From: Nemertoderma westbladi
Taxonomy: Eukaryota > Animalia > Xenacoelomorpha
Direction: 5' to 3'
Length of the DNA stretch: 64,000 bases
NCBI GenBank assembly: GCA_032718475.1
Contig: JAUCBJ010007488.1
Coordinates: 62,001 to 126,000, forward strand
Shown here piece by piece: positions 24,971 through 62,300 of the stretch (its first letter is position 1; the number at the start of each line of letters is the position of its first letter). The notes under the pieces were generated by a model. The model was not told the origin of the DNA, did no database searches, and worked only from the letters and a program-made list of their open reading frames with translations. The position numbers and the translations under genes were made by a program.

Positions 24971-25142
24971 TTAATTTATTTATTTATTTGGGTTATCGGG
25001 CCGAGACCCATTGTACATACTGATATATCATATCACTGAGATTTTAATCCAGGCATATTGCCTATATTGCCTGCCGTACAAATACTTAAGACAAATAAAA
25101 TCAAATAATAGTGAATTAACGATTATTCAATTAACGATTATT

Positions 25143-42925: not shown

Positions 42926-44206
42926 TTAGTCTTTCTTGCGCGGACGGCGTTTACGCAGTTTTTTAAAGCTAGCAAGAGTCCTTTTCTCTTTGGGGCGAGC
43001 CACTTTACAAGGAGGGCTATAACTCCTGGGTGAAGGGTGCAATATGATTGCATCAGAAGGTATGGGATTACGATCGGTATATCCGCCGGTCGAAGTGCCG
43101 GGTTGGGTGACTTCAACTTCGGTGGAGAGGGGTCTAACGACCTTTAGAGCGCGTTTTAAGACGGCCGCTCTTACGGGTCCTTTAAGAGTGGTCTGAACGA
43201 GAGCCGTGGGTGGACCATAGGCAGTCAGAAACTTCCTTGGTTTAATGGTTCTTTCCAACTCGCGTTCGCGGGCTTGGTACTCGTAAGGCCGTCGATATAC
43301 TTCCTGTAACTCGGGGTGCGAGTTGACAAATAAGTCTCCATAATCAGGGTCTTGACGGATAAAGTTTATTAAGTTGTAAGAATGGATGTCACTAGGATTA
43401 ATGCTCCTGAGAAATTTGCGTACATATTTGGTTGAAATACATTCTCCGACGCGCTTCAGTAGTTCGTAACTTAATATACGTGATTTCTGCTCGACGGAGG
43501 CAAATAAATAAGGATGGAACGCATAAACTCCTTCGTAGGCGCGTCCAGGATAATAGCGATGGCGTGAATCACAATGTAAATCAGCGTTCGCTTCCCAAGC
43601 TCTGATGTAACGTAGTACAATCATTTCATCTACGCTCTCTAAATCATGATTAAAGGGACAATCAAAGCTGGCGTGTCCTTTTAATTGACAATGATGGCAT
43701 TGAGTCATAAATTGGGGGCAGACAGCAAAAATGTGCAAATTATTAAGCCGGCAATATGCACAATAGATTTCCATCGACGGTTGCTCGTGGAAATAGGAAC
43801 AGAGATCGTTTGTGTCCATAGACGTAATATGGTCTCTCGACGCGCACAGCCGACAACGTTGTCGAGAAACATAATTGGCATGGCGATAATCATACGCAGT
43901 GAGACACTGTGGACCTTGATACCATTCCAAAATGTAATCGCTGTCGCTACTCCGAGGCGTGGGAGGCTGAATCTCTTCGGATTCTAAGCATATGGGTTCG
44001 TCTTCTCCTTGTATAGTTGAGGTAGGCATGGCTGTCTCTTCAAGTGGACCTACCGTCTGAATTTCCACGACAGAATAACCTGTGGGGATTCGAGGTCTTT
44101 GGATAACAGAGGAGTGCAGGTTTGTTATACAAATGTCTTTGAAAATAGCAAATCCAGCGCTATCTAACTTCTCCGCAGCTGAGTCTCTTAAGCTGAGCTT
44201 GGTCAA
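42926..44206 (-). CDS. Accessory Cys/His-rich (zinc-knuckle) protein of the BEL element, function unknown
   Basis: 426 aa open frame with CRLCASRDH, CAYC-x5-H-x4-C, CHHC-x3-GH-x4-C and a basic C-terminus (KKLRKRRPRKK). The frame stays open upstream to 44299. Confidence 0.7.
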   Translation of the reverse strand: MTKLSLRDSAAEKLDSAGFAIFKDICITNLHSSVIQRPRIPTGYSVVEIQTVGPLEETAMPTSTIQGEDEPICLESEEIQPPTPRSSDSDYILEWYQGPQCLTAYDYRHANYVSRQRCRLCASRDHITSMDTNDLCSYFHEQPSMEIYCAYCRLNNLHIFAVCPQFMTQCHHCQLKGHASFDCPFNHDLESVDEMIVLRYIRAWEANADLHCDSRHRYYPGRAYEGVYAFHPYLFASVEQKSRILSYELLKRVGECISTKYVRKFLRSINPSDIHSYNLINFIRQDPDYGDLFVNSHPELQEVYRRPYEYQARERELERTIKPRKFLTAYGPPTALVQTTLKGPVRAAVLKRALKVVRPLSTEVEVTQPGTSTGGYTDRNPIPSDAIILHPSPRSYSPPCKVARPKEKRTLASFKKLRKRRPRKKD

Positions 44207-47200
44207 AGCGCGGTCTTTGAATTGGCTATCTATGTTGCGAAACGGGGTTAAGAATCGCCGGAAACATTCAAAGCGGATGAATTTATTATGTTCATCTGCT
44301 TAGCGAGTTTGTTCCCAAGGATTAATGGATGGGCGCGTATAGTACGACTGCACACATCGGCTAGCCAACCGGAAAGTGCGGTGTTTTCAAAGATCGTGTA
44401 GATAGCTAAGGAGGGGCGGAGTGGAACACTCATGAAACTATACACGGCGCCAGGTGCGGTCAACGGTCCGTCAAAGTATAATCGAGAATAATGGTCTCCG
44501 TATACTTGTTGATAGTTGATTGGATTTCCGACCTTGGAATTCCATCCGTATTCTTGAAAAGCAAGATGTCCGATGGAAGTTCGTTGCACCTTTGTAATGT
44601 TGCTAGACGCATTGGCATACATGGTGCAAAAGAAACCTCGGCCTTCGGCTCAGGGAGCAATCAGCTGAGTATCAACGAAAGGGTATGGAATGTTCTCCAT
44701 ATTCCCGTCATATGCCTAATATGTCTTCCATTGATGGTAGTGGTAGAGAGCAGGGGAAGACCTATGTCGTATTCAGAAATATTCATAAATACGATCTCAG
44801 TAGGAGGATTCAATCGTTCGAAGACTATCTCCAAATGAATTTATCCCTAATGCGAGGAGGTAAACACCAGTTCAAAGATATGTTTGTCTCAGTTGTTCTA
44901 CATAAGATTTATATCTCCAATCATTGAGGGAGGTGAACAACCAGATTTATGACACATAATGGTACCAGTTGTTCACAAACTATCTGCGTGTCCTTTCAGT
45001 CCTTGTATCACGGTTGTGGACTTAAGGAAATTATTGATGGTTGATTTTCTAATCAACAACGAGAGGGTGGAAGTTGATATCATAAATATCAACAGAATGT
45101 GACATGGACAAGAGGTGCGGACACCAATATGAGCATCCAGATTAACAGTAAGGGATGGGAGGTTTAGTAAGAGGCGGTATGATCAATACCACGATACGGC
45201 AATGATTGGTCGATCGTCTCCCGAAGCTCCGAGCGCGTTGGGAAGAGAAGGTGGGACGAAGTATGTTGTATTTTCAATAGCGATGTATAGAGGGATAAAG
45301 GGAGTAAAGAGGAGGAAGGATATATGGTAGTATCCATAAGATACCACAATGGACATGTTTCCGTCACATCATCATTCATTCTTGCCCTTTAATTGTGACA
45401 CTGATCACAATAATTACAGGAAAACGATGAAGGAAGAGAAAATTACAGCCTCCCGAAGGAGACCGCCCGCGAGCACCCGTGCCCCGGGGAAAACTATTCA
45501 CATCATGGACTCTGGACATTAACCCATGTCTCTTCTCCAGTGTTCTCCTCTATTTGTCTTTACAAGCTTTCTACCAAGTTCTATCTTTCGAGTTGTTTTC
45601 GAATACAAATCTCGTGTTCCATTCTCGGTTCATCATGCCGACTCCGCTGGGTATGATATTTAAATAGAACCATTTCCCTCTCTGTATCTACATCGTCCGT
45701 ATCATGTAAATCGATAGGATGGCCGGTAGTTAAGAAGTCCATATACGTACCATTACGATTCGTATAGCGAGTGGTGAATTTTCGATAGTCCAATTCACGC
45801 GCAAGTTGCTCTTGGGACATCGGCGGTTCGATATAACGACCATCGTCCTCCGTAATGGTTGGATCGGCTTCACCGCGTATTAAGCTATCCACAAATGCTT
45901 GTAAAGGTAGAGTATATCGCTCCCTAATACCAAGATCATCTTCTATCAACTCCATCATATCTGCTATCTGAGTTTATTAATATCAAATAAGTTTATATTT
46001 AGGCGAGCGGGCGTCGCTGCCTACTTCTCTTTGCCCCCGGACAGTGGGATTCTCAGCGCCGATGTACCGTCGTCGCGGTGTTTACGCCAACATGTAGCAA
46101 CAGCACGACAACGATAACCGGCACAAGTCACTCCACTGTCCGTCCCAAAGGCTTGGATCCACTTAGGTTCTTTCTATAGGAGAGTTGGGCTATTTTTTAC
46201 GATTGCGACTAGCTACTGTAAACATACTTTAGCCGTAACATTCACCTATAAACGCACAAATTCCACACAACTATCACTAACAGCACACATACAGGCCATT
46301 TGTCCGTTAGTCAGTGCCTTCCAGAATGTCACGTTATTACTGTGTATCCTTGGATACTAACAGTGTGCTATATATTCTCTATGCTATGCAATGGGACAAG
46401 CTTTCTATTGTTCTTTTAACTTGCTTCTAATTCTAGCGTGGGTGTTGCTATGGTGACATTATGGAATGCTAGCGGTAGAATTAGGGTAATTCTCATGCAT
46501 ACAGATCTGGGATGCTATTTAATAATAATTCTTTAATTGTCAATATCCTCTTTATGCATGATTTTATTAATTTTATCGGCTATTGACTATATGTTGGAGA
46601 TTCTCGCACTCTAATACACTCAATAGGATGAATCTCCGCTCCCATGATCTATTAATTAATGGAATTTTGGGAATGTTATAAATTGCACAAAATGACAATT
46701 TATGAAATTCATTTAAAATATGAATTTAAATTTATTCCCGTGAATTTTATTATTTGATGTTAAGATTGACACAATTTGATTCCAGAGCAGGTCTGGGGAC
46801 ATAGGATCCTTAATTCTATGAAATTTGTCTTTTAAGAGTATCGGTAAGGGCTACGATATCTTAATCGACTAGAATTGTTAATGGATCTGAATTTTACAGA
46901 TTTTAATAAATATTAAATTAATATTTAAGATGGGCACCGATTTATTCCAGAACTTGTCTGGGGACGTTAACCACTGATTCTAGAATTTGTCTTTCAAGTA
47001 TATCGGTGGGTGCCGCGATATCTTAATCGACTAGAATTACAGATGGTCAAAAGGTTTAACAGATTTATTTGCATTTTACGCTACTGTTAGAGGGACATCA
47101 CGCTACTATATGTATTATTTAATATAAGGTAGAAGAGCAATATCGCACGAAGCAATGTCAGTGTGAAGAGGCAAGTCGTTTCCAAGGTCTACCCAGAGCT

Positions 47201-47578: not shown

Positions 47579-50500
47579 TCACGTTAGGGAGTCCCTAGAT
47601 GTTTGAGGAATTAGGGAGGTGGTTGTGGGAAGAGTGTCTTGCCTTCCATAGTTTCCGGAGAGTTCTCTGTCTCTTTCCAGTAAACATAAACGACCAACTG
47701 GGCGATTGAGTTGTTGAGTCTCGAAGATTATGCCTGGCTTCTTGAAGTTACGCCGCATGACGACAAGTTCTACTGAGCGCACTAAACCATCGTCCGAGAG
47801 GTGAGTCTCGATGATACGACCTGTCTGCCACCGTTTACGTGGGAGGTCTGGATCTACAATAAGCACCATATCTCCGGCGCTGACGTTTTCTTGCTGCGCA
47901 AACCACTTAGTTCGAAATTGTAGCGTGGGCAGATAATGTTTCTCGAAATGGTCAGCGAAACGACGGGATAGCAGCTGCATAAGTTGCCAAGTTCGACGGC
48001 AGTATTCGTCTCCATCGGCAATCTCCGATCGTGGGAGCATGGCTACAGGTTTCTTCAGTAGGAAGTGCGCGGGTGTTAGCGCTTCCAGGGAATCGGGACT
48101 CGATGAGACTGGCATAAGCGGTCTCTCGTTGAGATAGGCAGCGATTTCCTCCATTAATGTCCGCAAAAGTTTGTCGGTGAGATACGCGCGGCATGGCACT
48201 ATAAAGTGAAATGCGGTTTTGACACTTCGAATTAATCTCTCCCAACTTCCTCCCCACCAAGGGGCGTCGGCGGCGTTGAAGGTCCAGCTAGACGCTGTTA
48301 TCCTTAGCTGGTCGTCCACCTGTCTTTGGTTCCAGTCCTTCACGTAAGCCTGTATTTCGTTGTTGGCACCAATGAAGTTCGTTCCCTTATCCGATCTCAT
48401 GGTATTACTCGTCCCGAAGCGAGCGATCTGTCGTCGTAAACTTAAGACGAAGCTGTTGGTAGATAGATCGTTCACCATATCGAGATGGATGGCTCTACAA
48501 GTCATGCACACGAAGATGACACACCATCTCTTGACTATAGTCCTAGCACGATATACTTCAATAGGGCCAAATAAATCTACACCAGTATTAGTAAAAGGTG
48601 GTTCATAGAAGCTTACTCGTTCCCTAGGTAATTCTGCCTCTCGCTGTGTTAAAGGCCTACTGAATGCTTTCCTACAGGGTATGCAGTTCCTAAGAACTTG
48701 GTTCAGAGCTCTACGGGGTTTATCAAAATAATAGCGAGTTCGAATTTCGCTAAGAATTCGTTCTCTACCAGCATGATAAAGTTTACTGTGAACATCTACA
48801 ATCATCTTGATTTGTACTTCAAGATTTCTAATAAGTATGGGGAATTTGGTGTCAAAGGATAAGGGCGCATTGGTGAGTCTTCCTCCAACACGTATTAACC
48901 CATCTATCATTGTGCTTGAGAATCGATCCCTTAAGCGCATCTGCGGATTTCTCAACAACAGGAAATACTTTTCGGAATCCTCATAGCATTGCAGGAGTCT
49001 CAGTATCTGCTTATTGGTTTCTTCATGCTCCTGGTGACTAATTTTCTCCTTTAGAAAACGGTCAGATGTCTTATATTTGGGTAAATTTTTAATAACATGA
49101 ACTTGTGCAGATGTCAATGGAGCGTTATCGCTAGTGGTCTTCGTCCTGGAGTAGTGATGATGAAAACATCGTCTTAAATATGTGACGGCTTTACAGAGCC
49201 GATTCCAGGAACTGTAATGATGCATTGCTCTCTGCAGCATGGGTGAGATTCCTTGCGAGACGTCTGGTATTCCAGATTTCCAATCTCTATCTCTAATTTC
49301 CACAACAGACTTATTTGTGCTGAGGGATTGGGGATCCGAAGCATCATTCCCGGAAGTATGTAATACAGATAGATCGATAGTCGGTTTAAATAACTTCGAT
49401 TTACTCGCCCGGGTTTTAGGTTTGACTGTCTCCGCTCCCTTGGCTTGTCTAATCTCTGCCGTAGTAAGGTGAGGAGGCCATTCATCCTCTTCCTTGCTCA
49501 GGAAGTCGGGTCCACCCAACCAATCTGGAGTATCTATCAGTTCCTGTGGAGTTGCTCCCCTGGAGGCGATATCGGCTGGATTAATCGTACCAGGGCAATG
49601 TCTCCATTGATCTATCTTTGTGCGACTAAGAATAATAGCTACTCTGTTAGTAACAAAAACGCTGAACTGACAGACTTCATTGGTTAGATACTCCAACACG
49701 AGTAAAGCGTCGGTCCAATAAACCGTTTTCTCCAGTGGATAGTCGATTTGTTCCGTTACGTTCCGGCCGATGGCTGTAGCGTATAAAGCCGCCTTTAACT
49801 CCGCTCGAGGAACCTTTAACTTGTTGTTAATCAATGCCTTAGAGGTAACCAAGGCGACTTTGATTCCATCCGGGGTTTCGACTCGCAGATATGCTACTAT
49901 ACCTATTCCCATGTCGCTGGCGTCTCCAAACACATGGAGTTGATAAGAATACGTAGGAAGAACATGGCCAAAATATGCACGGGAAATTATAAAGTTCTCG
50001 ATGGCAGGTAGAGAATCTTCCCATTTCATCCATTTCTTTAACAATTCTCCCTTAAGCGGATCGTCCCATGAGTGGTTTTCAAGCCACATTTGTTGTACTA
50101 AACTCCGAGCAATCAATATAACTGGGCTAATAAATCCCAATGGGTCGAAATAAGTGCTCAGGATGCTTAAACAAATCCGTTTGGTCCGAACTGGATTATC
50201 TCGCTGTTTTAACTGAAAAAACAGGATGTCTCTTTCAGTGTCCCACTTCAAGCCTAGCGTCTTGGTTTCAGGAAGATCGTCCTTTATTAAGTCTAGGTCT
50301 TTCGTTCCTCGGTCTTCTACCGGTATGGCTTCCAGAAACTCACGGGAGTTGCTAGTGAATTTCGTCAGTCGAAATCCACCTCTTTTCAAACACTCTACCG
50401 TTCCTTTCGCGACAGATATGGCTTCTTCTACTGATGGAAGGGACCTTAAATTGTCGTCCATGTATATATTTCGTTTTATGTTGTCTATCACTTCTTTTGA

Positions 50501-52189
50501 GAAGGAGTCTCGGTTGTCATTCGCAGTGGTTCGCACCACGGAGCAGGCGTTGGAAGGGCTTGATATGATTCCAAAAGCCTGGATGGTCATCCAATACTCT
50601 ACCGGTTTCTGATTGAGGTCTCCTTCAGGCCACCACAGAAATCTCAGGCTGTCTCTATCTCTATCCAGCGCCTTGACTTGTAAGAACATTCCCTCTATAT
50701 CTGAGGCGAACGCGATGGAATATTGTCTTAATCTTAAAAGTATTCCCAACAAAGATTGGAGTAAGTTGGGTCCTGGTAACAACTCGGAATTGAGGGATTG
50801 GCCCATATATAGGGCGGAGCCATCGAATACGACTCGTACTTCGTGGGGTTTACCGGGTTTGGGAACGTAATGATGTGTTAAGTAATACGTTCTCTCAGTC
50901 ACTGGTGTTCCTTCCGGTACTTGCTCCACGTATCCCTTTGTTATAAATTTCCTCAGCTGTGTTTGGTACATTTCTTTCACGGAAGCATTAGCTGTAAGGC
51001 GTCGATGTAATTGAGCGATTCTTTTCTCTGCCAAGGGTCTGTTATTTATAAATCTAGGTTCTCGTTTTCGAAATGGTAGGCCGATTTCATATCTACCTTG
51101 GTCTTTTAGAAAACGTGTAGTTATTTCCTGGATTTGCTTGGCTCTTTCTTCTTCTATCGATAGAGCCTTATCATATAAATTGGGCTCTACCAGTTCCTGA
51201 GTAAAGAATCGTACGGCTAGCTCGTCCCGAGTTCTAGCGTTGTAGCGCTCTATCTCATCGTTTAGTTCGTCATTGTAAGCGATGGGTTCCGATGGGCGAA
51301 TCAGTTGACATAGGTTCACCTGATTTTTCCAAGTTTGGTTTTCTGTAAGTAGGTCGATTGTGTTCTCTTCATCGAAGAGTTGGTAGATGTCGTCATTATC
51401 TGAGGAGTATGGTGTTCCCTCAGTTAGTTCGTCCACCTCACTGCTCTCCACTTCCCAATCATTTACTTGGTGTATTTGTTCTTGTGGCATTCTCTCTTCG
51501 AGAGTCCTGCGGGAAGGGCCAGTAAAGTACCAACCTACTCTAGTTCTTACTGCATAGGTTTGCAGTGGCTGTGGTTGAGCAGGCCGTTTCTCCAATGTTT
51601 CGAGCGCCTCATGCGCGTTTTGGCCGATGAGTATTTGCACTCCAGGATAATCTGTCTGGAATCGAGGTATCTTAAGATGTTGGATGCTCTCATCCTCGTC
51701 CCAATTATAAAGGTCTGCTTGAGTAGTGGCGAAGTTCTTTATAGCCGCCATTTTTACCGACCTTATACCTTGTGCTCCTAACTTATCCTGGGGGGTGGAC
51801 AACACACCTACATAGTAATCTGCCGTTAAGGTAAATTTCCAAACCTGCATAATTCCTGACATATTCAATTTAGTCCGGAATTTGGGTTGTCCAGCAAAGA
51901 TATCTTCGGCTAATTCTTGATCGATGAATGTTCCTGTGCTGCCGGAGTCAAGGAGTGCGTTCACTATGTAACTTTTGTTAGGACCGTGAACTCTTACCTG
52001 CACTACAGGAAATTCTCTGATTCCTACGTTGGAAGTTGGAGCTTTCCAAGATGGTTGTTTGGCAAAAGTAGTTGGGGGAAACTCATTGTTGGTGTCCTTT
52101 TCATAAGTAAGTGCTCGATACACTGCGGTATTGATTAGATAACAGGATTCGTTGGCGTCGGAGAATTCGTCAGTATAGAATCCTTCCAT
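47579..52189 (-). CDS. BEL/Pao Pol: aspartic protease, RT, RNase H, integrase
   Basis: LLDSGS (PR); RVVFDGS, DIEGMFLQV, YMDD (RT); LHVFGDAS, PRAEL, YWTDA, NPADIASRG (RH); H..LYH...CIPC, GVDLFGP, SDKGTNF, GGSWERL (IN). 1536 aa uninterrupted. Confidence 0.97.
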   Translation of the reverse strand: MEGFYTDEFSDANESCYLINTAVYRALTYEKDTNNEFPPTTFAKQPSWKAPTSNVGIREFPVVQVRVHGPNKSYIVNALLDSGSTGTFIDQELAEDIFAGQPKFRTKLNMSGIMQVWKFTLTADYYVGVLSTPQDKLGAQGIRSVKMAAIKNFATTQADLYNWDEDESIQHLKIPRFQTDYPGVQILIGQNAHEALETLEKRPAQPQPLQTYAVRTRVGWYFTGPSRRTLEERMPQEQIHQVNDWEVESSEVDELTEGTPYSSDNDDIYQLFDEENTIDLLTENQTWKNQVNLCQLIRPSEPIAYNDELNDEIERYNARTRDELAVRFFTQELVEPNLYDKALSIEEERAKQIQEITTRFLKDQGRYEIGLPFRKREPRFINNRPLAEKRIAQLHRRLTANASVKEMYQTQLRKFITKGYVEQVPEGTPVTERTYYLTHHYVPKPGKPHEVRVVFDGSALYMGQSLNSELLPGPNLLQSLLGILLRLRQYSIAFASDIEGMFLQVKALDRDRDSLRFLWWPEGDLNQKPVEYWMTIQAFGIISSPSNACSVVRTTANDNRDSFSKEVIDNIKRNIYMDDNLRSLPSVEEAISVAKGTVECLKRGGFRLTKFTSNSREFLEAIPVEDRGTKDLDLIKDDLPETKTLGLKWDTERDILFFQLKQRDNPVRTKRICLSILSTYFDPLGFISPVILIARSLVQQMWLENHSWDDPLKGELLKKWMKWEDSLPAIENFIISRAYFGHVLPTYSYQLHVFGDASDMGIGIVAYLRVETPDGIKVALVTSKALINNKLKVPRAELKAALYATAIGRNVTEQIDYPLEKTVYWTDALLVLEYLTNEVCQFSVFVTNRVAIILSRTKIDQWRHCPGTINPADIASRGATPQELIDTPDWLGGPDFLSKEEDEWPPHLTTAEIRQAKGAETVKPKTRASKSKLFKPTIDLSVLHTSGNDASDPQSLSTNKSVVEIRDRDWKSGIPDVSQGISPMLQRAMHHYSSWNRLCKAVTYLRRCFHHHYSRTKTTSDNAPLTSAQVHVIKNLPKYKTSDRFLKEKISHQEHEETNKQILRLLQCYEDSEKYFLLLRNPQMRLRDRFSSTMIDGLIRVGGRLTNAPLSFDTKFPILIRNLEVQIKMIVDVHSKLYHAGRERILSEIRTRYYFDKPRRALNQVLRNCIPCRKAFSRPLTQREAELPRERVSFYEPPFTNTGVDLFGPIEVYRARTIVKRWCVIFVCMTCRAIHLDMVNDLSTNSFVLSLRRQIARFGTSNTMRSDKGTNFIGANNEIQAYVKDWNQRQVDDQLRITASSWTFNAADAPWWGGSWERLIRSVKTAFHFIVPCRAYLTDKLLRTLMEEIAAYLNERPLMPVSSSPDSLEALTPAHFLLKKPVAMLPRSEIADGDEYCRRTWQLMQLLSRRFADHFEKHYLPTLQFRTKWFAQQENVSAGDMVLIVDPDLPRKRWQTGRIIETHLSDDGLVRSVELVVMRRNFKKPGIIFETQQLNRPVGRLCLLERDRELSGNYGRQDTLPTTTSLIPQTSRDSLT

Positions 52190-52270
52190 CTCAGATTCTT
52201 GATCAGTGTCGTTTACATCACTGAATTGGACATGTAGTTCGGGCTCACTTACCTGACTCAGTTTGTCTCG

Positions 52271-52489
52271 TTAGAACTCACTGTGTAACAAGATGTGATG
52301 TTTCGCGCCACACTTTGCACACTTTATGTCGGAGTAACAGGTTCGCCGTTGGTGTCCTGGTCTGAGACAATTATAGCATAACCGCTTGTCCCACACGACT
52401 GCACGTCTGTCTACAAGGGATTTCTTTAGAAATTCAGCACACGCACTCAAATGGTGGGTCCCGTCGCACAGCGCACAGTTAGGTTTTAT
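52271..52489 (-). pseudogene. BEL gag C-terminal triple zinc knuckle, separated from the rest of gag by the nested element
   Basis: Reads CALCDGTHHLSAC...LCYNCLRPGHQRRTC...CAKCGAKHHILLH-SEF-TAA. It is in frame with gag across the TTTAT TSD and with pol beyond the TAA. Confidence 0.9.
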
Positions 52490-53028
52490 TGTGACGGGAT
52501 CCAGGAGGGATCCCGATTTATCCGATGTGGTATTTAGTCCACGCGTCCCCGCCGTGTATAAGAGTGAAATAAAGATAACTGAGTTCTGAAGTTCGGTGTA
52601 TAATAATAGGTTACAGGATATAGATATATTGTGAATTATACGGTAGGCGGGATACGGTAACTAAAGTCCCGTGATCCCCTAACTAAACTAATTGGCTTTA
52701 CCCTACGCTAGCACTGCTGCACTGAGATAACTGAATCACTGATTAATAGGTTATTGGTTATATTGCACGGTGGCCTTACTGCTACTCAATCGATGCTATT
52801 CCCCCCCTCTGATTGGTTAATACCCTTGTTGGCGCCCCGTGGAGTATTCCCGTTCACTCCACCTGTTCTCTCTGGGTTAGGGGTTTGGCCCCTGACCCTC
52901 TATTGTGTGCTTCCTTCCCACTCTTATTGGGATGGCACGAGTTGGTTAATTGCCCAATCTCGTGGCTCCCAATATTGCTTATCGGCTTACAACTTTATGG
53001 GGTGTTGGCGGGATTGAATAAGCTAACA
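52490..53028 (-). repeat. 3' LTR of the nested element
   Basis: Matches 58804-59342 except g52711 versus a59025. Preceded on the minus strand by the G-run PPT (...GGGGAG). Confidence 0.97.
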
Positions 53029-53718
53029 CTCCCCCCCATGCTATCTTCCCGGTAAGAAGATAGCATCAACCAAAAAGTGCGCTACAATCCCGCTGGATCC
53101 CGATCTAGTATCGGGTGTGGGGTGGAATTCTTTTCTCTTGGAGCCGGCTTTCCAGGCCGCCCCCTATGGGTATGATAACGCTACCCTGTGTGCCTGGCGT
53201 CTCATGTCGGGCCGATCGCGCTCGTCTCTCACACGATTTTTGTTTCCCCAACACTTTCGCCCTTGACTCTCCTTTCACTCTACTCTCGGACTTCTCTGTT
53301 CCTTACTCAGCCTCTTACTCCTTCCCCCCCACGCTTGAATTGCGCTCACACTATCTCCACACTATCTCCATACCACCTCTCGCTATCTCTCTTGCCACTC
53401 CCTAAGGCTTTAATCTCTAATGCTACCCCTGTGCTATCATACTGTCTACCTACTGCTTACTAACTCTAACTATCTAACTAACTCTGCTAACTACTAACTC
53501 TTACTACTTCTAGCTCTAACTGAGAGCCTCTAACTTTCTACTGACTCTAACTCTCTACTAAGTCTAACTAACTCCTACTAACTTTCTACTTCTACCAACT
53601 CTACTTGACTCCTCTGAGTCTACCAACTCTGCTTAACTAGCTCTACTAACTCTACTCCACTAGCTCTGCTAACTCTACTCCACTAGCTCTGCTAACTCTA
53701 CTCCACTCTTCTAACTAC

Positions 53719-54837
53719 GTGGCGCTTGCGGTGCCCACAACCACTCTACTATCTGGCACCCTATGTGCCCTTCTACTACTCAACTACCTCTCTAGCTCTA
53801 CTACCTGGCACCCTATGTGCCCCCTCTGCTCTACTCTACTACCTGGCACCCTGTGTGCCCTCTCTACTACACTACTACCTCTCTAACTTACTACCTGGCA
53901 CCCTATGTGCCCGTCTCTACTCTTCTACTCTCTGGCACCCTATGTGCCCGTCTCTACTCCTCTACATCCCCTTTACGTCTTATCGCCTACACGTGACGCT
54001 CTGAGTGCCGGCAGAGTGGGTACGTTAATTATGTGAACTACTACTGACTCTACTAACTCTACTAACTCTCTTCTAACTCTACTAACTCTTTTTTGTGCCC
54101 GCCACCTCTTGTGCCCGGCACCTTCTAACTCTACTAACTGGCACCCTATGTGCCCTCTCTACTACTCTACACTATCTCTAACTCTCTAACTCTACTACCT
54201 GGCACCCTATGTGCCTTCTCTACTACTCAACTCTATCTCTAATTCTCTAACTCTACTGCCTGGCACCCTATGTGCCCGTCTACTACTCTACTCTTTTTGT
54301 GCCCGGCACCTCTTGTGCCCGGCACCCACCCTAATTAACATACCTCGCTCTTACATCAAACACATCATCACGCCCGTGCCCCACTAAGTTCAGCGCATTC
54401 CCTACTAACTCTAACTACGTGGCGCTTACGGTGCCCACAACCCTCTACTGCTACTACTAACACCCCTAACTAGCGGTACTACGTACCCTCTTACTACTCT
54501 AGCTCTCTCTACTAGCTAGCGGTACAACGTACCCTCTTACTACTCTAGCTCTCTCTACTAGCTAGCGGTACAACGTACCCTCTTACTACTCCTACTCTCT
54601 AGCCGGTACTTACGTACCCTCTAACTCTTACTCTCTAACCGGTACTTACGTACCCCCTAACTCTAACTAACTAGCGGTACTTACGTACCTACTAACTCTT
54701 ACTAACTCTCTAACGGTACTACGTACCCCTTAACTCCTACTCTCTAACGGTAGAGAGACTCTCTAACTCTTACTCTAACACTAACTATCAGTGCTAACTG
54801 ACTAACTAACTAACTCTGACCCTAGGTACTATGTACC
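53719..54837 (-). other. Array of 16 short hairpins in low-complexity spacers (3' UTR of nested element)
   Basis: 8 copies of ggcac-cct(a/g)t-gtgcc followed by 8 copies of ggtac-(3-4 nt)-gtacc. Spacers are nearly G-free on the plus strand. Confidence 0.8.
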
Positions 54838-54898
54838 TCCTAAATAACTCCTAACTACCTAACTTCTACCTACTTTATTATTTAATTATTTTATTTAA

Positions 54899-57415
54899 TT
54901 AAATAATTATTTTATATTTCGTGCGTGGGAAGGGCGTCTCGCCCTCATTCCCACCCCCCTCAGTCCAAAACTTTGGACGACTAAAAACTCTCACGTGCCC
55001 CTTCTTCCGGTAGGCACTCTCCTGCTGCCCTCCTATACGTCCTCTAACTCTTCGCCACACTCTCTTTGGTGCTACCTTTGCTGGCCTCCCCCTTCGTATG
55101 TGCGCTGGCATTAGAGCCCTCGACGACCCCCGCTCGTCCCTCGGTATACGCGGTGTCTGCCCATGTAATGCCCCCCCGCACTGTGTCAGCCCTGCGTGTG
55201 TATGCAACACGCCTCCTTCTACTTTCCCGACTCCTTTGCTCATGGACTTCTCTAACCCTGGTTTAGTCCTTTCACATCCTTTCCCTTTCCAACACTCTCC
55301 GGATCTGTGTCCTTTTACCACACATCGATGACATAGTCCGTTTGCGTCTGTGTAGGCTACACGATCTCGTTTGGGCAACGCTTGCCAGTACTTGCAACTC
55401 CTGGTCTTATGGGTTCCGTCCCGATGTAATTGACATTGGAATCCTGGGTTATAGCGTTTCCTGTATAGTCCTTCATGTATCGCGCTTAGGTTTATATGTA
55501 CCGATTTAATGTTTTGGTTGTCTAGACTCGGCCTACTGGGTATATTGGGATTGTTTTTATTTACGGTATTATTTTCCTTCTGTCCCTGCCACGGTGTGGC
55601 CCTACTACCAGCTAACTGTGGACTGGTAGTCCCCTGTATGGCCGCGTGTGGTGGTGACTGTCCGCACGACCTGCTCTCGTCCAGGGAGTTCGATATTCTT
55701 GCTCCTATCGGGATATATTGTCGATATTGTGATGGGGGAATGTCACCCTGTCCCCCCCCAGCCGGTATGTTTGGTACTGGGGTTGATGTTAATACATTGG
55801 GGCCCATACGTCTATCTCCAATAACTCCCCCCTCCCCTGGATATATGTTATGTCCCTGTGTATTATAGTCATGCTGCTGTACCGATATAGGCCTACCTAC
55901 CTCTCGCCTACCTACCGGTATGTACTCCGCGACTTCCGGGTTTAATCCCGTCGTTCGCGCTACCCCATCGCCTACTCTATCTCTCCCAGCATGGCCTATA
56001 ATAGTATGTGCAGTAAGGCCTACAGTATGTCCTGCAGTCTGCATGTGCCCTTCCGAACCGAAGTTTATTCTTCGCGAATCTCTAATCTCCCCGCGATTAC
56101 TGCACTCTCGATCGGCAGCTATATCCCGTCGGGAAGCTTCTCTCCGATCCCCTCTCCTGTTCTCGACTCTGTATTGGTACGTCTTGTACCCCTCTCTTGG
56201 CGTGCGGTGCGTTTCTCCGGGGCGACGGCAATCTCCCGAAGTTCGACCCCACTGGCTCCCTGACTCCATCTCTACTATCGACGGTTCGTTATCCGTCTTC
56301 GCACTCCTATCATTCGTGGCGACACCTTTTCTACTATCTCCTCTTCGTCTCTTTTCAGTGCAGTATTCCGGCTCGTGAGATCTCTCGTCGACCTCCCGGT
56401 TAAACTCCACTGTTCTTCTTCTCTCTTCTGGTCGGGCTCGACGCTTCGCCTGCCCTCTCGCGACGTCAACCTGCCTCTCTCTGCTCGATCGCACGCCGCT
56501 GGGGATACTCGCAATCCCCCTATTACTCTCCGTCGCCGGGTGTTGCGGTTTACCTGATTCGGCCCGCGCATTATCCGCTGACGTCTGCGGGACACTCTCT
56601 GCCCCCCCTCTCTCTCTACTAACTTCTCGCGGTGGGGTGCCCGTAGCCCCCCCCCACCCGCCACTTCTAACTTCACTACCTCTTACTACACTTCTACACC
56701 CCTCTTGTGGGGCATTCTCTGCCCCCCCTCTCTCGCCACTAATCTTATGTGGTGGGGCGCCGGTAGCCCCCCCCCACTCGCCACATCTAACTTCAATATC
56801 TCTTACTTCGTCTCTATACCCCTCTCTAGTCGACGCGCTGTCTCTACTACGGCTGGGTCTGTTCACCCCCGCCTCTCTCTCTACTACTGCGTGGCCCACC
56901 AGGCCTACTTCGGGTTGGCTCAACCCCGCTACCTCCTGTCTACTAACTGCGTGGCCTACCAGGCCGCCGCCGGGTTGGCTCAACCCTGCCACCTCCTGCC
57001 TACTAACTACGTGGCCTACCAGGCCACCGTCTGCTGAGTTATGTACGTCCGACACGCTCACATTAATAGCACCATTCCCAATATTATTTGTTAAATCAAT
57101 TAAATTATTAGAATTTGAAACAGGATTATTATTTAAATTATTTAAATTACTTAGATCACTACTATTCTCTAGACTTAAATTATTATCCGAATTATTTTGC
57201 GGGTTTGAATTGAAATTATTATTTAGAATATTTGTATTTAAATTTAAATTACTACTACCCGGTAAAATATTATTTCCTGTAATAAAGGGATTAGGGTTAT
57301 TTACTACGGTACTATTAATATTAACTACTTCTGACGTACTACTACTACCCCCCCCCGCCCGTACGGCTACACCAGTTCTGGTTCTCTCGCCCGGTGTCTG
57401 TAAGTGGGGGCTCAC
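54899..57415 (-). CDS. Gag-derived protein, C-terminal part: Asn-rich and disordered, with BEL-type zinc knuckles
   Basis: CQLHRDGTHKTRSC-x21-CHRCVVKGHRSGEC-x5-C mirrors BEL knuckle spacing. It also has internal 20-aa and ~40-aa repeats. Confidence 0.7.
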   Translation of the reverse strand: MSPHLQTPGERTRTGVAVRAGGGSSSTSEVVNINSTVVNNPNPFITGNNILPGSSNLNLNTNILNNNFNSNPQNNSDNNLSLENSSDLSNLNNLNNNPVSNSNNLIDLTNNIGNGAINVSVSDVHNSADGGLVGHVVSRQEVAGLSQPGGGLVGHAVSRQEVAGLSQPEVGLVGHAVVEREAGVNRPSRSRDSASTREGYRDEVRDIEVRCGEWGGATGAPPHKISGERGGAENAPQEGCRSVVRGSEVRSGGWGGATGTPPREVSRERGGAESVPQTSADNARAESGKPQHPATESNRGIASIPSGVRSSRERQVDVARGQAKRRARPEERRRTVEFNREVDERSHEPEYCTEKRRRGDSRKGVATNDRSAKTDNEPSIVEMESGSQWGRTSGDCRRPGETHRTPREGYKTYQYRVENRRGDRREASRRDIAADRECSNRGEIRDSRRINFGSEGHMQTAGHTVGLTAHTIIGHAGRDRVGDGVARTTGLNPEVAEYIPVGRREVGRPISVQQHDYNTQGHNIYPGEGGVIGDRRMGPNVLTSTPVPNIPAGGGQGDIPPSQYRQYIPIGARISNSLDESRSCGQSPPHAAIQGTTSPQLAGSRATPWQGQKENNTVNKNNPNIPSRPSLDNQNIKSVHINLSAIHEGLYRKRYNPGFQCQLHRDGTHKTRSCKYWQALPKRDRVAYTDANGLCHRCVVKGHRSGECWKGKGCERTKPGLEKSMSKGVGKVEGGVLHTHAGLTQCGGALHGQTPRIPRDERGSSRALMPAHIRRGRPAKVAPKRVWRRVRGRIGGQQESAYRKKGHVRVFSRPKFWTEGGGNEGETPFPRTKYKIII

Positions 57416-58688
57416 TCTCTGATATCTCCAACCGCGCCAGTTCTAGTCGGCGCTGGCCTAGTTTGGCTTGATATTGCGCAAGCCTCCCTAGCCGGGCACG
57501 CAAATCATCCCGCTCACGCTTACCCTCTATCTTTCTCTTTCGCATATTCTGCTCGCCCGACTCAACTCTCGCAATTATCTCAGGCCACGTCGCCGGCTCG
57601 TCTCCTACTCTCATCTTCCGCTCTATACACTCCTCGACTCTCTTACACTCCTCGACTCTCTTTCTATACTCTCTTAACTCTAACTCTCTTAACACCTTTA
57701 AGACGGCGGTTTTATCCCTCAGTTGCCGCTCTAAGCTTTTCTGCTTTGCCGCCGCCCTTTCTAAATCATACGCCAGATTTATCTCCCGCACCCTTCTTTC
57801 TTTTGCGGAGGATGTAGCAGACTTATCGGTTGCGACGGACTCCCGCCCCCCCTCTGTCCTACTAACTCTCCCCCGCCTCCCGGAACTTCCTCCGACCGAC
57901 GAGACCGAATCCTCGGAGTTAACCTCGGATTCGCCCTCCTGCGGTCTCTTCCAACCCACTAATTTTACTCCCCGGGCATCGACTAAGTATGGCCCTATGT
58001 ACACTACACTAGGCTGCATACCCCTACATTCCCATAGTTCAACCAGTTCGTTGACAACTCCTCTCGCCCTCAACTCTGCTAGTTCTCTCTGTCCAGAACA
58101 CACTAGGTGATCAAAGTATCTGTTCGACTCACCTAGTCGCTTTCTCAGTCTCACCTCGTCTATCTTCGCCCCCTCCTTGGCCTCCTTTAGTAGTTCCCGG
58201 GTCGCGTTGTAGGCCCGTCGAAGTCGATCAGAAACCCCGACGTCCTCGTCGCCGACCTCTCCCCTGTCTCTTCGGGTCCGACGTCGTACCGGCGGCTCCA
58301 CCGTCGCCGTTCCGGTGGGCCGTCCGTCGCCCTCGGCCTGTAGCTGGCCGGCGACATCGGTACCAATCTCTCCTCCGTCTCTTCGCGTCCGGCGTCGCAC
58401 CGTCGGCCCCACCGGTTCGGTGGGCCGCTCGTCACCCTCGGCCGGTAGCTGGCCGGCGACATCGGCACGCCGTCCTCCGTCCCGTGTCGACTCATCTCCT
58501 TCTCCCTCCGTCTCGCTCTCTTTCTCTCTTGGCTCGACTTCGGGTTCCAGGCCCTCCTCGTTCTGTGCTTCCGGTTCGCCCGTTATCGATGGCTCCGGCG
58601 TCGTGGGCCTGTATCGTTTGGTCGCGGCCTCGCGGATCGTTAGGTCTTCGTCCGGGGTCCGTGGTGGTGTCTCGCCCGACTCACTCAT
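57345..58688 (-). CDS. Gag-derived protein, N-terminal part (acidic/Arg-rich disordered region plus coiled coil)
   Basis: 447 aa from an ATG ~115 nt after the 5' LTR. It overlaps the next ORF across a G9 run, and a 1-nt deletion there would fuse the two. Confidence 0.7.
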   Translation of the reverse strand: MSESGETPPRTPDEDLTIREAATKRYRPTTPEPSITGEPEAQNEEGLEPEVEPREKESETEGEGDESTRDGGRRADVAGQLPAEGDERPTEPVGPTVRRRTRRDGGEIGTDVAGQLQAEGDGRPTGTATVEPPVRRRTRRDRGEVGDEDVGVSDRLRRAYNATRELLKEAKEGAKIDEVRLRKRLGESNRYFDHLVCSGQRELAELRARGVVNELVELWECRGMQPSVVYIGPYLVDARGVKLVGWKRPQEGESEVNSEDSVSSVGGSSGRRGRVSRTEGGRESVATDKSATSSAKERRVREINLAYDLERAAAKQKSLERQLRDKTAVLKVLRELELREYRKRVEECKRVEECIERKMRVGDEPATWPEIIARVESGEQNMRKRKIEGKRERDDLRARLGRLAQYQAKLGQRRLELARLEISESEPPLTDTGRENQNWCSRTGGGG

Positions 58689-58803
58689 CTCGTCTGGTGG
58701 CTGATGGTTCGGCTAGCTAGGTTGCAGTTCTTAGAGTTTAACTAGGGCGGCAGCTCGGTTTAGTTACTGAGTTTAGCTGGGGAAGCAACACCGTTTTAGT
58801 TAC

Positions 58804-59342
58804 TGTGACGGGATCCAGGAGGGATCCCGATTTATCCGATGTGGTATTTAGTCCACGCGTCCCCGCCGTGTATAAGAGTGAAATAAAGATAACTGAGTTC
58901 TGAAGTTCGGTGTATAATAATAGGTTACAGGATATAGATATATTGTGAATTATACGGTAGGCGGGATACGGTAACTAAAGTCCCGTGATCCCCTAACTAA
59001 ACTAATTGGCTTTACCCTACGCTAACACTGCTGCACTGAGATAACTGAATCACTGATTAATAGGTTATTGGTTATATTGCACGGTGGCCTTACTGCTACT
59101 CAATCGATGCTATTCCCCCCCTCTGATTGGTTAATACCCTTGTTGGCGCCCCGTGGAGTATTCCCGTTCACTCCACCTGTTCTCTCTGGGTTAGGGGTTT
59201 GGCCCCTGACCCTCTATTGTGTGCTTCCTTCCCACTCTTATTGGGATGGCACGAGTTGGTTAATTGCCCAATCTCGTGGCTCCCAATATTGCTTATCGGC
59301 TTACAACTTTATGGGGTGTTGGCGGGATTGAATAAGCTAACA
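58804..59342 (-). repeat. 5' LTR of the nested element
   Basis: Direct repeat of 52490-53028. Confidence 0.97.
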
Positions 59343-62300
59343 TTTATGTTACTCACTTTACCTTGGGTAACTTGCTGCACTCTCGTTCTTTCTTCGGGTT
59401 TTCTTCGGTGCATTCTGTTAGGAGACTGAGGAGGGGTCTTGGCAACCTGTTCTCTCCTATCGTTGTTTCGAGCTTTGTATTTACTTACGTCTTTTGAGGT
59501 TTTGTCAATATAGTAAGATCGATCTGTGTCTTTCCCGCTGTCCTCTTCTTGGGAAGCTTGGCTTTCGCCGTCGTCAGTGAAACACACCGGTGTTACTCTT
59601 CTCCTAGAAGCGGGTTTCTCACTTACCTTATTTTCCGATGTTTTCTCTCTGGACTGCTTGATGAGTTGTAGTTTTACTTCACCATCTAAGAAGGACATGA
59701 GGACAGCCATGGTAGGGCTTCGTCGTTGTTGTTCATTCATGTACAACACTTTCTTGTCCCAGCGTGTACATACTCCACCCTTTGGTAAAGTAGAGACTAC
59801 GGCTCCAATAACCATGGAACTCTGATATTCATGAGACTTACCTAACCAGTCCAATTGTCTACAGATCTCCTGAATTTCATCGGAAAACTCTATAATCCCG
59901 CTACTAAGGAAGTGTCGGGGGGCTACTAATTTTGCATACAAATACTTAGCTATGTTATCCTTGTTACCATACCTGATGTTTAATGTATCCCAAACTTGTC
60001 TTAATCCTTCTGGATGTCCAATAAACTTTAACGCCATTAACTTGGGAGGTCCTTCCAAGCACTTGATGAGGAACCTAAGTTTCTCTCTGTTAGATAGCAC
60101 AGAGTTCTGTATGCTGTCTTTGTAATATTCGTTGAAAGGTAACCATTTCATCTCATCTCCATTGAATTTGACGATCTCTCCCACTTTGACCGCTTGGCGG
60201 GCTTCTGTTCTAGCCATCTGACACGTAAAGCTTTCTTGGGCCATCGTGTTATTTAATATCGAATTATCGGTATATAAATTTCTCAGATCATTATCAGGTC
60301 TATAGGGAATATCATTAACAACAGGTCTATAATCACCCTTAATAGGGTTTGCTATAGGAGTTTCTACTTCACTAGCAGTATAGATGCGTGTAGGCTCCAC
60401 ACCTTGCGCATGTAATACTTCAGACCTAACAGGTTGACACAATTTTACAGGGGGTATGGGTATACCCTTTTGTATGTTGACTAATTTGTCGCGTTCTAGC
60501 GCGATACTTTGCTGCACTTCTTGCAATTCTGCCCTACCTTCCCTTACGGTTCCCTTAAGTTGGTGGACAGTCTCCTGCATCTGTCCGAGCAGGAGATTCA
60601 TCCCCCGTCGTCCCTCCTCTACCCACTCGACCGCCGAAGCGGGAGTCGCCAACATTGTAGCGGGCTGACGCGGGACGACGGGAGACAAATCTTTGATTTC
60701 TCTCTCAGCTTCCAGGACAGGGATATTCTCTTGGACTGTTCTACCGGGCACAGGCAGTGTAGTACTGTGTAAAGGGAACTTAGAGTTAAGCTCTGGAAGT
60801 ACAGGGGTCTCTAGCACAGAAGTGACTTTGGGAACGACAGGCCTAATTATTTCAGGCTCATCAACTATTGTAGGGAGTCTTTTGACCTGAATAATTTGTT
60901 CTGTGGGTTCTGTACTACCTAAGTCTGTGCTAGCTAGTTGTCTTCTAACAGCTGGGGGCAAATCAGGCAATTTTAGACGGTGAGATGTTTTTCTACGCCT
61001 GCTTAGACGAGATCTATTTCCTCCACCTTCAGGATCGGTGGTCTCGCCTTCCTCCGAGGATGTGTATCCTTGGCGTTTGGGAGTAGATCGACTCATCATC
61101 TGCATTCGACTATCCGTTAACTGTCTGTTTATGTGGTCTTGCGTCTCTTGCAGATTTTCTAACTCCATTTGGGTGGCCTTTTCAGACGCTTTCCGTTCTG
61201 CTTCTGCCACTGCCTCCGCTGCTTTTCTTTCCGCTTCGGCCGCTGCTTCTGCCGTCTTTCTATCTGCTTCGGCCTCTGCCATTGCCGCTGCTACTGCTGT
61301 TTTTCTGTCTGCTTCAGCCATTGCTTCTGCCGCCTTTCTATCTGCTTCTGCTGTTGCCATTGCCGCTGTTACTGCTGCTTTTCTGTCTGCTTCAGCCATT
61401 GCTTCTGCCGCCTTTCTATCTGCTTCTGCTGTTGCCATTGCCGCTGTTACTGCTGCTGTCTTTCGGTCCTCTATCCGTTTTTTCTTTACTTGTTCTTCTT
61501 GGACTCTAGTGAGGCGGAGTTTTTCATCAAATTCAGCTTGGTTAGCAGCTAACATTTCAGCATCGATTGAGTCTAACACACGCTGGGTTCCTTCACTATT
61601 AGGGGAAAGTCCAGACAGCCGTCTCCTCTACTCTTCGTCTCCTAGGAATCGCTGATAGTCGGACAGATAAATGTCGATGGCGTCTCTCGTTTGTGGTCTC
61701 TCTGCGGTCTCTTCGCCTTCCACTTGAGAAAGGGTGGCATCGGTTGGTTCTTCATAGGTTAGTCTCTCAGACAGCTGGGATTTCCACTGGTCCGTTTCTT
61801 GTACTTTGAGACCTACCCGCTGGAACCAAGTTTTGACAGCAACCTGCAGCGACGTGTCCTGTCTTCTTTTGGAAGTTTCCTCAAAGGCTGATAGGATTAG
61901 TCTAATACGTAGGGTTCTTTCGCGTACTTGATATAGCAGCCCTTCCTGCTCTTGAGGTCCTTGGGGTTGTCGAAACAGTTGTTCTTCCAATCGCTCCAAG
62001 GAGCCGAAGAATCCCTGCACATATCCTGCTGCCGACCTCTTCCAAACAGCTGGATCCATTGTATCTTTAGTCACTCCCATCCTGTGTATATCTTCCCAAG
62101 TAGCTTCGGACAAATCTAACGGGAGTCCGGGTCCGGGAAAGTTCCATTGTGACTCGACAATAGACATCAATTCTTCCCTGGCGTATCCCGCATAATTATC
62201 TTGGGTCGCTCTCATACTTCTTGCCCAATCGGCTTGATGTTCTTCCACCGCAATCAATATAGTAGTTAGTACTGCGGCAGGAAGGGTGAGAAGGGGGTCC

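What the first reader, a model, noticed from the sequence alone, without database searches (positions are those of the whole stretch)
53719..54837. Ordered array of 16 co-varying hairpins in the 3' UTR of a pol-less LTR element
Seen: a header motif gtggcgctt(g/a)cggtgcccac at 53719 is followed by 8 copies of GGCAC-cct(a/g)t-GTGCC (53755, 53807, 53845, 53897, 53934, 54140, 54201, 54262). The header recurs at 54419 and is followed by 8 copies of GGTAC-N3-4-GTACC (54475, 54521, 54567, 54605, 54641, 54676, 54715, 54825). The two families differ by a compensatory pair (C:G to T:A at stem position 3). Loops in the second block vary while stems hold, and spacers are variable-length, nearly G-free cta/ctct tracts. 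Inference: this is a multivalent RNA scaffold presenting AUAGG/GUA/GUAA loops on the transcribed minus strand. It could be a packaging signal that recruits a helper element's Gag/Pol, or a binding array for the element's own zinc-knuckle protein. Established background: retroviral CCHC knuckles bind exposed loop guanines.
Basis: partly seen in the sequence, partly recalled or inferred. Interest (0 to 1): 0.85.

Follow-up and report, generated by a model that had tools for sequence, protein, structure and literature searches.

The report
Hairpin-array tail in pol-less retrotransposon
A recently inserted, many-copy jumping gene of what is likely an animal lacks its own copying enzymes and carries about twenty short palindromes in its tail whose paired arms stay fixed while loops, spacers and unit number change between copies, so the tail likely folds into RNA hairpins that would help it get packed into another element's particles.

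Summary
The motifs are real, at every stated coordinate: 19 perfect stems against 0.57 expected. They lie in the 3' non-coding part of a 6,853-bp LTR element with 539-bp LTRs (one mismatch) and a 5-bp target duplication. It has no pol and no detectable capsid domain, only a predicted coiled coil and BEL/Pao-type zinc knuckles, and it sits inside a BEL/Pao gag. Across other copies in public runs, 1 of 39 listed variant sites falls in an arm (7.7 expected); loops vary as often as spacers. Three first-reader claims need trimming. 'Co-varying' rests on one pair change between two families. 'Header + 8' is not fixed, because headers repeat and units are gained and lost. There are 18 palindromes plus two headers, not 16. 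Best reading (0.4): a multivalent RNA hairpin array that helps packaging by a helper's Gag; binding, expression and the helper are untested. Rivals: DNA factor-binding array, host RNA-protein scaffold, self-amplifying minisatellite. Side finding: no tRNA-type primer site, but a 9-nt match suggesting Tf1-like self-priming. The scan noted hairpin- or repeat-filled pol-less LTR elements before in other genomes. New variant of a known kind.

The parts
58804..59342 (-). 5' LTR, 539 bp, TG...CA, four CCAAT boxes
52490..53028 (-). 3' LTR, 539 bp, one mismatch to the 5' LTR
52485..52489 (.). target-site duplication TTTAT (left copy)
59343..59347 (.). target-site duplication TTTAT (right copy)
58795..58803 (-). 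primer-site position: no TGG start; 9 nt complementary to LTR 58971-58979 (candidate self-priming, inferred)
   Evidence: chance 0.008; at least 8 of the 9 letters also adjoin the LTR in a shorter-leader variant, table 5c
58971..58979 (-). LTR 9-mer complementary to the primer-site position; candidate transcript 5' end (inferred)
57345..58712 (-). ORF1, 455 codons stop to stop (first Met 58688): acidic disordered start and two long predicted helices (coiled-coil-like); no Pfam family
54899..57442 (-). ORF2, 847 codons, overlapping ORF1 by 98 nt around a G run; low-complexity, no confident fold, no capsid family detected
55274..55435 (-). zinc knuckles of BEL/Pao type: C-x2-H-x4-H-x4-C, then C-x2-C-x4-H-x4-C; third knuckle truncated after its first Cys
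54475..54837 (-). family B: 8 x GGUAC-loop-GUACC, sense loops GUAA x3, GUA x2, GUU x2, AUA x1
54419..54438 (-). header hairpin, copy 2
54299..54325 (-). long hairpin 5 bp + G.G + 5 bp, loop AAGAG (contains a 9th A-type palindrome at 54305)
54095..54121 (-). second long hairpin, imperfect in this copy, complete in the other copies listed
53755..54276 (-). family A: 8 x GGCAC-loop-GUGCC, sense loops AUAGG x7, ACAGG x1
53719..53738 (-). header hairpin, copy 1
53440..54880 (-). whole array region with C-poor AG/UAG/UUAG spacers on the sense strand (46-58 UAG per 500 nt against 3-22 elsewhere in the element)
53038..53066 (-). 11-bp hairpin just before the polypurine tract, extended to 13 bp by two G-U pairs on the sense strand only
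53029..53037 (-). polypurine tract
59348..61627 (-). host BEL/Pao gag, part before the insertion (DUF1759)
52274..52489 (-). host BEL/Pao gag, three knuckles after the insertion
47579..52270 (-). host BEL/Pao pol (Peptidase_A17, DUF5641, integrase zinc finger)

Best explanation
The array is the 3' non-coding part of a young, multi-copy LTR element that has BEL/Pao-type zinc knuckles but no pol, and its palindromes likely fold as a row of short RNA hairpins that would serve as repeated landing sites for knuckle-type nucleocapsid domains, so that the RNA is likely packed into the particles of an autonomous helper. Shown: element anatomy, absence of pol, multi-copy state, fixed arms with variable loops, spacers and unit number. 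Predicted: each unit folds locally on the sense strand (pair probability 0.83-1.0 at 30-nt span), exposing G-rich loops and G/A/U-rich single strands. Inferred: the array works by valency, not by order, since copies differ in number and order of units; units are gained and lost by slippage or template switching during reverse transcription; the identical arms could also pair between two RNA molecules and aid dimerisation; the element's own coiled-coil-plus-knuckle protein, lacking a detectable capsid domain, cannot build a particle alone and may act as an adaptor; a helper of the BEL/Pao group supplies capsid, RT and integrase.
For: Anatomy: (no RT/protease motif in six frames, no tblastn match to the host pol). 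Knuckles align with the host BEL gag knuckles and with the single database hit P0002, a knuckle-plus-protease protein (E 9.9e-5). Non-chance; folding z -4.78 (A block) and -2.72 (B block), 0 of 100 shuffles as stable. Conservation: 1 of 39 distinct listed sites in arms against 7.7 expected, P 0.002; rates arms 0.4%, loops 3.4%, spacers 4.1%, flanks within 5 nt 10 of 204. At the one arm site the window copy is the deviant. 1 of 11 distinct listed indel places is in a loop, none in an arm. Loop length of 3, 4 or 5 nt, changing 4 to 3 between copies at 54681, suits a hairpin better than a rigid dimer site. The pre-PPT hairpin gains two G-U pairs on the sense strand only. Background: unpaired guanosines are needed for Gag packaging and cross-packaging in HIV (PMC12031250, abstract and passages).
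Against: No compensatory change within a family; one between families. Arm versus loop difference is weak alone (Fisher P 0.064). 7 of 47 substitution rows and 53 of 65 indel rows were hidden; if 4 or more of the 7 were in arms the result would not be significant. Contigs that fit two places (935 of 3847 in X1) may be laid on the wrong unit. With spans of 120-200 nt the identical arms cross-pair: 6 of 8 B hairpins fall below 0.1 on the sense strand at span 200, and sense spacers are only 53-67% unpaired in the model against 78% on the antisense strand. The header folds slightly better antisense (-8.8 against -7.5). In family A the loop and upstream flank are almost as fixed as the arms, as recent duplication would give. 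The packaging signals in the paper read lie in the 5' UTR. The neighbouring BEL element has no such array. The ORFs show no significant excess of silent changes (11 of 26, P 0.22).
Confidence: 0.4

Rival explanations
1. The palindromes are DNA binding sites for a dimeric host factor, and the array is an enhancer or insulator, as the su(Hw) array is in Drosophila gypsy (recalled, no call).
For: All arms share one consensus, GG-Y-R-C, across A, B and header, which base pairing alone does not require. Fixed arms with variable centres are also the signature of inverted half-sites. The header's deviant half-site is a mismatch-type change for a simple sense-strand stem.
Against: Centre length is 3, 4 or 5 nt and changes between copies. 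Nearly all half-sites sit in inverted pairs at hairpin distance, with only 3 lone ones by my reading of the list. The two long units are nested palindromes that fold as 10-bp hairpins.
Confidence: 0.2
2. The array is a self-amplifying minisatellite without selected function: hairpins stall reverse transcriptase, promote slippage and template switching, and are copied and homogenised, while low-complexity spacers mutate faster.
For: Tandem periods of 37-38, 61, 46 and 36 nt; many unit-scale joints among copies. Variable tandem repeats are frequent in 3' UTRs of Tat-lineage plant elements (PMC10794571 passage; PMC6317226 passage). The purine bias runs through the whole element, ORFs included.
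Against: Substitution depletion is confined to arms while flanks within 5 nt vary like spacers. 22 of 38 CpGs touch an arm, yet the five G>A places counted for X3 match five listed spacer rows, and no G>C or G>T was counted in any of the 4 runs. Three related but distinct unit types all keep perfect pairing.
Confidence: 0.2
3. The hairpins only space out or insulate single-stranded UAG-rich tracts that bind host RNA-binding proteins (hnRNP A1- or Musashi-like; motifs recalled) for nuclear export, germ-line localisation or stability of the RNA.
For: UAG 151 against 137 +/- 5, UUAG 53 against 30 +/- 4 (max 44), [GA]U1-3AG 134 against 121 +/- 5 in 300 dinucleotide shuffles; the A loop plus arm reads UAGGGU.
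Against: The full Musashi-type motif is not enriched (49 against 47), UAGGG[AU] is within the shuffle range (10, max 13) and UAGG is below expectation. Spacers are the variable part among copies.
Confidence: 0.15
4. The main role is RNA-RNA pairing: self-complementary units pair between molecules to dimerise or cluster genomes, with no protein specificity.
For: Unit homodimers are predicted more stable than two hairpins for all 7 units tried, most for 3-nt-loop B units (-17 to -19 against -10 to -13 kcal/mol); cross-pairing dominates long-span folds.
Against: Any palindrome gives this result; concentration is not modelled. No helper RNA with matching units was found in the window.
Confidence: 0.05

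Closest known systems
TR-GAG non-autonomous LTR retrotransposons of plants (Chaparro et al. 2015, PMC4350172; abstract and passages)
   Same: LTRs, target duplication, polypurine tract, Gag-derived coding sequence with a zinc knuckle, no pol.
   Different: TR-GAGs are under 4 kb, have one ORF with a recognisable Copia/Gypsy Gag domain and a PBS, and the paper found no significant structure in the TR-GAG1 leader. This element is 6.85 kb, likely animal, BEL/Pao-type, has two overlapping ORFs with no detectable capsid domain, no TGG primer site, and a 1.1-kb hairpin array.
BEL/Pao LTR retrotransposons (Belpaoviridae)
   Same: Knuckle spacing and conserved residues align with a BEL gag; 5-bp duplication; inserted in a BEL element.
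   Different: No DUF1759, protease, RT, RNase H or integrase; third knuckle truncated; the neighbouring BEL element has almost no 3' UTR and no array.
Tandem-repeat arrays in 3' UTRs of Tat/Ogre plant elements (PMC10794571 and PMC6317226, passages; Macas et al. 2009 seen only as a cited title)
   Same: Variable tandem arrays between coding region and 3' LTR.
   Different: In the passages seen these are described as satellite sources, not as short fixed-arm palindromes of several types in variable low-complexity spacers; different kingdom and superfamily.
Retroviral packaging signals (HIV-1/HIV-2 psi; PMC12031250, abstract and passages)
   Same: Several hairpins with exposed guanosines beside a CCHC knuckle protein; cross-packaging is documented.
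   Different: Psi is in the 5' UTR, is a unique fold rather than about twenty near-identical units, and is proven by mutation; nothing is proven here.
Self-priming Tf1/sushi group (PMC7175516, PMC4600332, passages)
   Same: Sequence right after the 5' LTR is complementary to a stretch inside the LTR instead of starting like a tRNA primer site.
   Different: Tf1 uses 11 nt at a mapped transcript start and is Ty3/gypsy; here 9 nt, start not mapped, knuckles BEL-like.

Membership tests
non-autonomous LTR retrotransposon | two direct LTRs with TG...CA ends and a target-site duplication | tested here: met
   539-bp LTRs, 1 mismatch, TTTAT on both sides
non-autonomous LTR retrotransposon | polypurine tract before the 3' LTR | tested here: met
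   53029-53037
non-autonomous LTR retrotransposon | no RT, RNase H or integrase | tested here: met
   no Pfam hit, no motif in six frames, no tblastn match to host pol
non-autonomous LTR retrotransposon | dispersed multi-copy family | tested here: met
   thousands of variant contigs across the whole interior in X1 and X3, 210 in X5; copy number and insertion sites not obtained
non-autonomous LTR retrotransposon | identified autonomous partner sharing LTR ends or primer site | not testable with these tools
   no genome held; no similarity to the neighbouring BEL element's DNA
TR-GAG | single ORF with a recognisable Gag (capsid) domain | tested here: not met
   two overlapping ORFs, no Pfam family at E 0.05; single-sequence models show only long helices or no confident fold (weak evidence)
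TR-GAG | length under 4 kb, canonical PBS | tested here: not met
   6,853 bp; no TGG after the 5' LTR
BEL/Pao | Gag with three knuckles in BEL spacing (pattern recalled; compared with host gag) | tested here: inconclusive
   first two knuckles and linker align (28% and 35% identity), third truncated
BEL/Pao | RT phylogeny within Belpaoviridae | not testable with these tools
   the element has no RT
retroviral-type packaging signal | stem-loops that fold on the genomic RNA | tested here: inconclusive
   predicted at 30-nt span, mostly lost at 120-200-nt span; arms conserved among copies
retroviral-type packaging signal | covariation supporting the stems | tested here: inconclusive
   one pair difference between families, none within
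retroviral-type packaging signal | specific Gag/NC binding and need for encapsidation | not testable with these tools
   needs experiments
Tf1-type self-priming element | primer site complementary to the transcript's 5' end | tested here: inconclusive
   9-nt complement in the LTR, chance 0.008, predicted pairing 0.94 if the transcript starts there; start not mapped
known Rfam RNA family | covariance-model match | tested here: not met
   0 matches at E up to 1 in 52400-59400

The most novel reading that the evidence does not exclude
A capsid-less parasite of BEL/Pao particles: it has cut Gag down to a coiled coil and two knuckles that act as an adaptor, has evolved an expandable MS2-array-like row of about twenty hairpins in its 3' UTR that outcompetes the helper's own RNA for packaging by sheer valency, and primes its own reverse transcription without tRNA, a mode described in the passages read only for gypsy and copia lineages.
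Probability: 0.2. Interest if true: 0.75.

Novelty: new variant of a known kind. Interest (0 to 1): 0.5.

Why it matters
How non-autonomous LTR elements win a place in a helper's particle is largely unknown outside retroviruses, and for BEL/Pao elements my searches found no described cis-acting RNA structure. A natural array of tiny, near-identical units with variable copy number is an unusually easy object to test: number of units, arm pairing and loop sequence can each be varied in binding and reporter assays. If it proves to be a DNA factor array, a high-copy mobile enhancer or insulator would matter for the host genome. If it is a neutral minisatellite, it is ordinary.

Tried and rejected
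No whole genome was held, so assembled copies could not be aligned and RNAalifold or R-scape-type tests across copies were not run. Rfam: 0 matches. ARAGORN: 0 genes in the window. Header scan of metagenome contigs: 13 loci, all 61-69% GC with none of the unit motifs, rejected as chance. Paired-unit scans of viral contigs: 37 and 19 loci, 0 of 56 with DNA or protein similarity to the element; the three richest that I read are coding-type Gly/Thr/Ser repeats. Protein-based locus search in viral contigs returned 0 loci. Word-indexed homologue searches: 0 of 33 and 0 of 389 candidates; the full HMMER scan gave 1 hit, a singleton without name. ESM Atlas: nothing for ORF1, only sub-0.9 zinc-knuckle clusters for the knuckle region. 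Single-sequence folds were of low confidence (mean pLDDT 56.6 and 32.4), so no fold search was run. Expression: no RNA holder listed; X6 is only guessed to be RNA, is labelled another organism and has few low-depth contigs, so it says nothing on expression. A GNRA reading of the header loop (sense GCAA, GUAA, a third variant in X1 and X3, a fourth in one X6 contig of depth 3) is possible, but the predicted fold gives a 7-nt loop instead, so it is not used as evidence. Selection on the ORFs: 11 silent, 15 replacement, 0 stops among the 26 listed ORF sites of 969 rows; not significant. The neighbouring BEL element as source of the array or LTR: no DNA similarity. Earlier-finding look-ups by relatives and by sequence found no look-alike. 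Paper searches that found no description of such an array; the library lacks most subscription journals and Repbase-type entries, and no supplements were read, so a prior description is not excluded.

Full report
Observation. In 53440-54880 there are 19 perfect 5-bp stems with at least three G/C pairs and loops of 3-5 nt, against a mean of 0.57 and a maximum of 4 in 500 dinucleotide shuffles. The inventory is larger than reported: 8 A units (sense GGCAC-AUAGG-GUGCC, one with ACAGG), 8 B units (GGUAC-loop-GUACC; GUAA x3, GUA x2, GUU x2, AUA x1), two longer nested hairpins at 54095-54121 and 54299-54325 that each contain an A-type core, and two headers that are themselves A-like palindromes with outer pairs. 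All arms fit GG-Y-R-C. Spacers are C-poor on the sense strand and built from AG, UAG and UUAG words. Tandem periods of 36-61 nt show that many units are recent duplicates, so they are not independent observations.

The element. LTRs at 52490-53028 and 58804-59342 are 539 bp with one mismatch and are flanked by TTTAT. The element reads on the minus strand and interrupts the gag of a BEL/Pao retrotransposon just before its three knuckles. It has two overlapping ORFs (455 and 847 codons) with no Pfam family at E 0.05, no RT or protease motif in six frames and no match to the host pol. ORF1 is predicted to hold long helices (mean pLDDT 56.6); ORF2 gave no confident fold. ORF2 ends in knuckles that align with the host BEL knuckles and with P0002, the only hit among 1.84 billion representatives (E 9.9e-5), itself a knuckle-plus-protease protein. 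The third knuckle is truncated. The array starts 62 nt after the ORF2 stop and ends about 680 nt before a short polypurine tract. The host is likely an animal: BEL/Pao is described as metazoan only (PMC3601003 passage), and unreviewed scan notes on this genome say the same.

Other copies. No genome was held, so I used public runs and laid contigs from 4 of the 7 listed runs, each from a different study code; X1 may be the window's own source. Thousands of variant contigs cover the whole interior in X1 and X3; depth is not a copy number. On the array, 40 of 47 substitution rows were shown, at 39 places: 35 in spacers, 3 in loops, 1 in an arm, against 7.7 expected in arms (P 0.002). At the one arm site the window copy is the deviant and the others have a complete palindrome. 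Rates are 0.4% in arms, 3.4% in loops, 4.1% in spacers and 10 of 204 in flanks within 5 nt, so nearness to a repeat unit does not by itself hide variants. Of 11 distinct listed indel places none is in an arm and one shortens a B loop from 4 to 3 nt; 53 further indel rows were hidden. Limits: if 4 or more of the 7 hidden rows lay in arms the result would lose significance; the arm-versus-loop contrast alone gives P 0.064; contigs fitting two places can be laid on the wrong unit. Joints show tandem headers and losses or gains of units, so 'header + 8' is a property of this copy. No compensatory change within a family was seen; the A/B difference may be a single event.

Folding. Blocks fold better than shuffles (z -4.78 and -2.72). 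With pairing limited to 30 nt all 16 units form on the sense strand (0.83-1.0); at 60-200 nt identical arms cross-pair and most single hairpins fade. The strand is not settled by the units themselves: the pre-PPT hairpin gains two G-U pairs on the sense strand, while the header is slightly more stable antisense and antisense spacers are less structured in the model.

Mechanism. I commit to a multivalent RNA hairpin array that helps the RNA into a helper's particle (0.4). Shown: anatomy, missing pol, multi-copy state, arm-specific conservation, variable unit number. Predicted: local hairpins. Inferred: binding by knuckle domains (by analogy with unpaired guanosines in HIV packaging; PMC12031250, abstract and passages), an adaptor role for the element's capsid-less protein, and a BEL/Pao helper. 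Rivals: a DNA factor-binding array (0.2), favoured by the shared arm consensus and disfavoured by variable centre length; a self-amplifying minisatellite (0.2), favoured by the duplications and by known variable 3' UTR repeats in Tat-lineage elements (PMC10794571, PMC6317226, passages); a host RNA-protein scaffold on UAG tracts (0.15; UUAG 53 against 30 +/- 4, but the full Musashi-type motif is not enriched); pure RNA-RNA dimerisation (0.05). The ORFs show no significant excess of silent changes among 26 listed sites.

Side finding. The 5' LTR is not followed by TGG. Its next 9 nt are complementary to a 9-mer at 58971-58979 in the LTR (chance 0.008 in 5000 resamples; predicted pairing 0.94 if the transcript starts there), and a shorter-leader variant in X1 and X3 keeps at least 8 of these letters at the LTR edge (table 5c). 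Tf1 primes itself with 11 such bases (PMC7175516, PMC4600332, passages). The transcript start is not mapped.

Comparison and novelty. It works like a TR-GAG-type non-autonomous element (PMC4350172, abstract and passages) but fails that family's size, primer-site and Gag-domain features. Passages of PMC13570524, PMC6934838, PMC5443660 and PMC13524379 showed no such array; PMC6934838 mentions single conserved hairpins in bivalve TRIMs and GalEa elements. Six searches found no description of a multi-type hairpin array in a BEL/Pao-derived element; the library lacks most subscription journals, and no supplements were read. The su(Hw), hnRNP A1, Musashi, GNRA and BEL three-knuckle patterns are recalled, not taken from a call. 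Unreviewed scan notes describe a hairpin-packed gene-less plant LTR element and repeat-filled pol-less elements in other genomes, which suggests the theme recurs; I did not test them. Verdict: a real and selected-looking feature, a new variant of a known kind, with function unproven; interest 0.5.

Noticed in passing
window 58795-58803 and 58971-58979 (minus): No tRNA-type primer site; 9 nt after the 5' LTR are complementary to a 9-mer inside the LTR (chance 0.008). A variant with a 35-nt shorter leader, seen in X1 and X3, keeps at least 8 of the 9 letters at the LTR edge. Possible Tf1-like self-priming in an element with BEL-type knuckles.
   Followed up: partly
window 57345-57442: ORF1 and ORF2 overlap around a G homopolymer; programmed frameshift, copy-specific lesion or assembly error were not told apart.
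   Followed up: no
window 52271-52273: In-frame stop between the host BEL gag knuckles and pol in this copy; the host gag is also split by a stop near 61628 and by the insertion.
   Followed up: partly
window 56586-56825, 56872-57025, 58257-58468: Tandem duplications (120, 60 and about 105 nt) inside the element's ORFs, several with their own small palindromes; one B-like palindrome with a 5-nt centre at 56176.
   Followed up: no
window 42926-44299 (minus): 457-codon ORF with Cys/His knuckle-like motifs and no Pfam family; weak match to the element's knuckles (E 0.01). Possibly another gag-derived element.
   Followed up: no
window 33709-41531, 18989-23562, 13935-16004, 25142-26420, 11055-12427: Large satellites of 69, 40, 68, 19 and 17 bp; several long ORFs there are artefacts of the repeats.
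   Followed up: no
window 16916-17656: 15-bp satellite that switches orientation at about 17390, forming a large inverted repeat; a similar inversion relates 10580-10739 to 11055-12430.
   Followed up: no
window 2465-6474 and 7171-8736 (plus): LINE with PHD-finger ORF1 and endonuclease-RT ORF2, and a second RT fragment.
   Followed up: no
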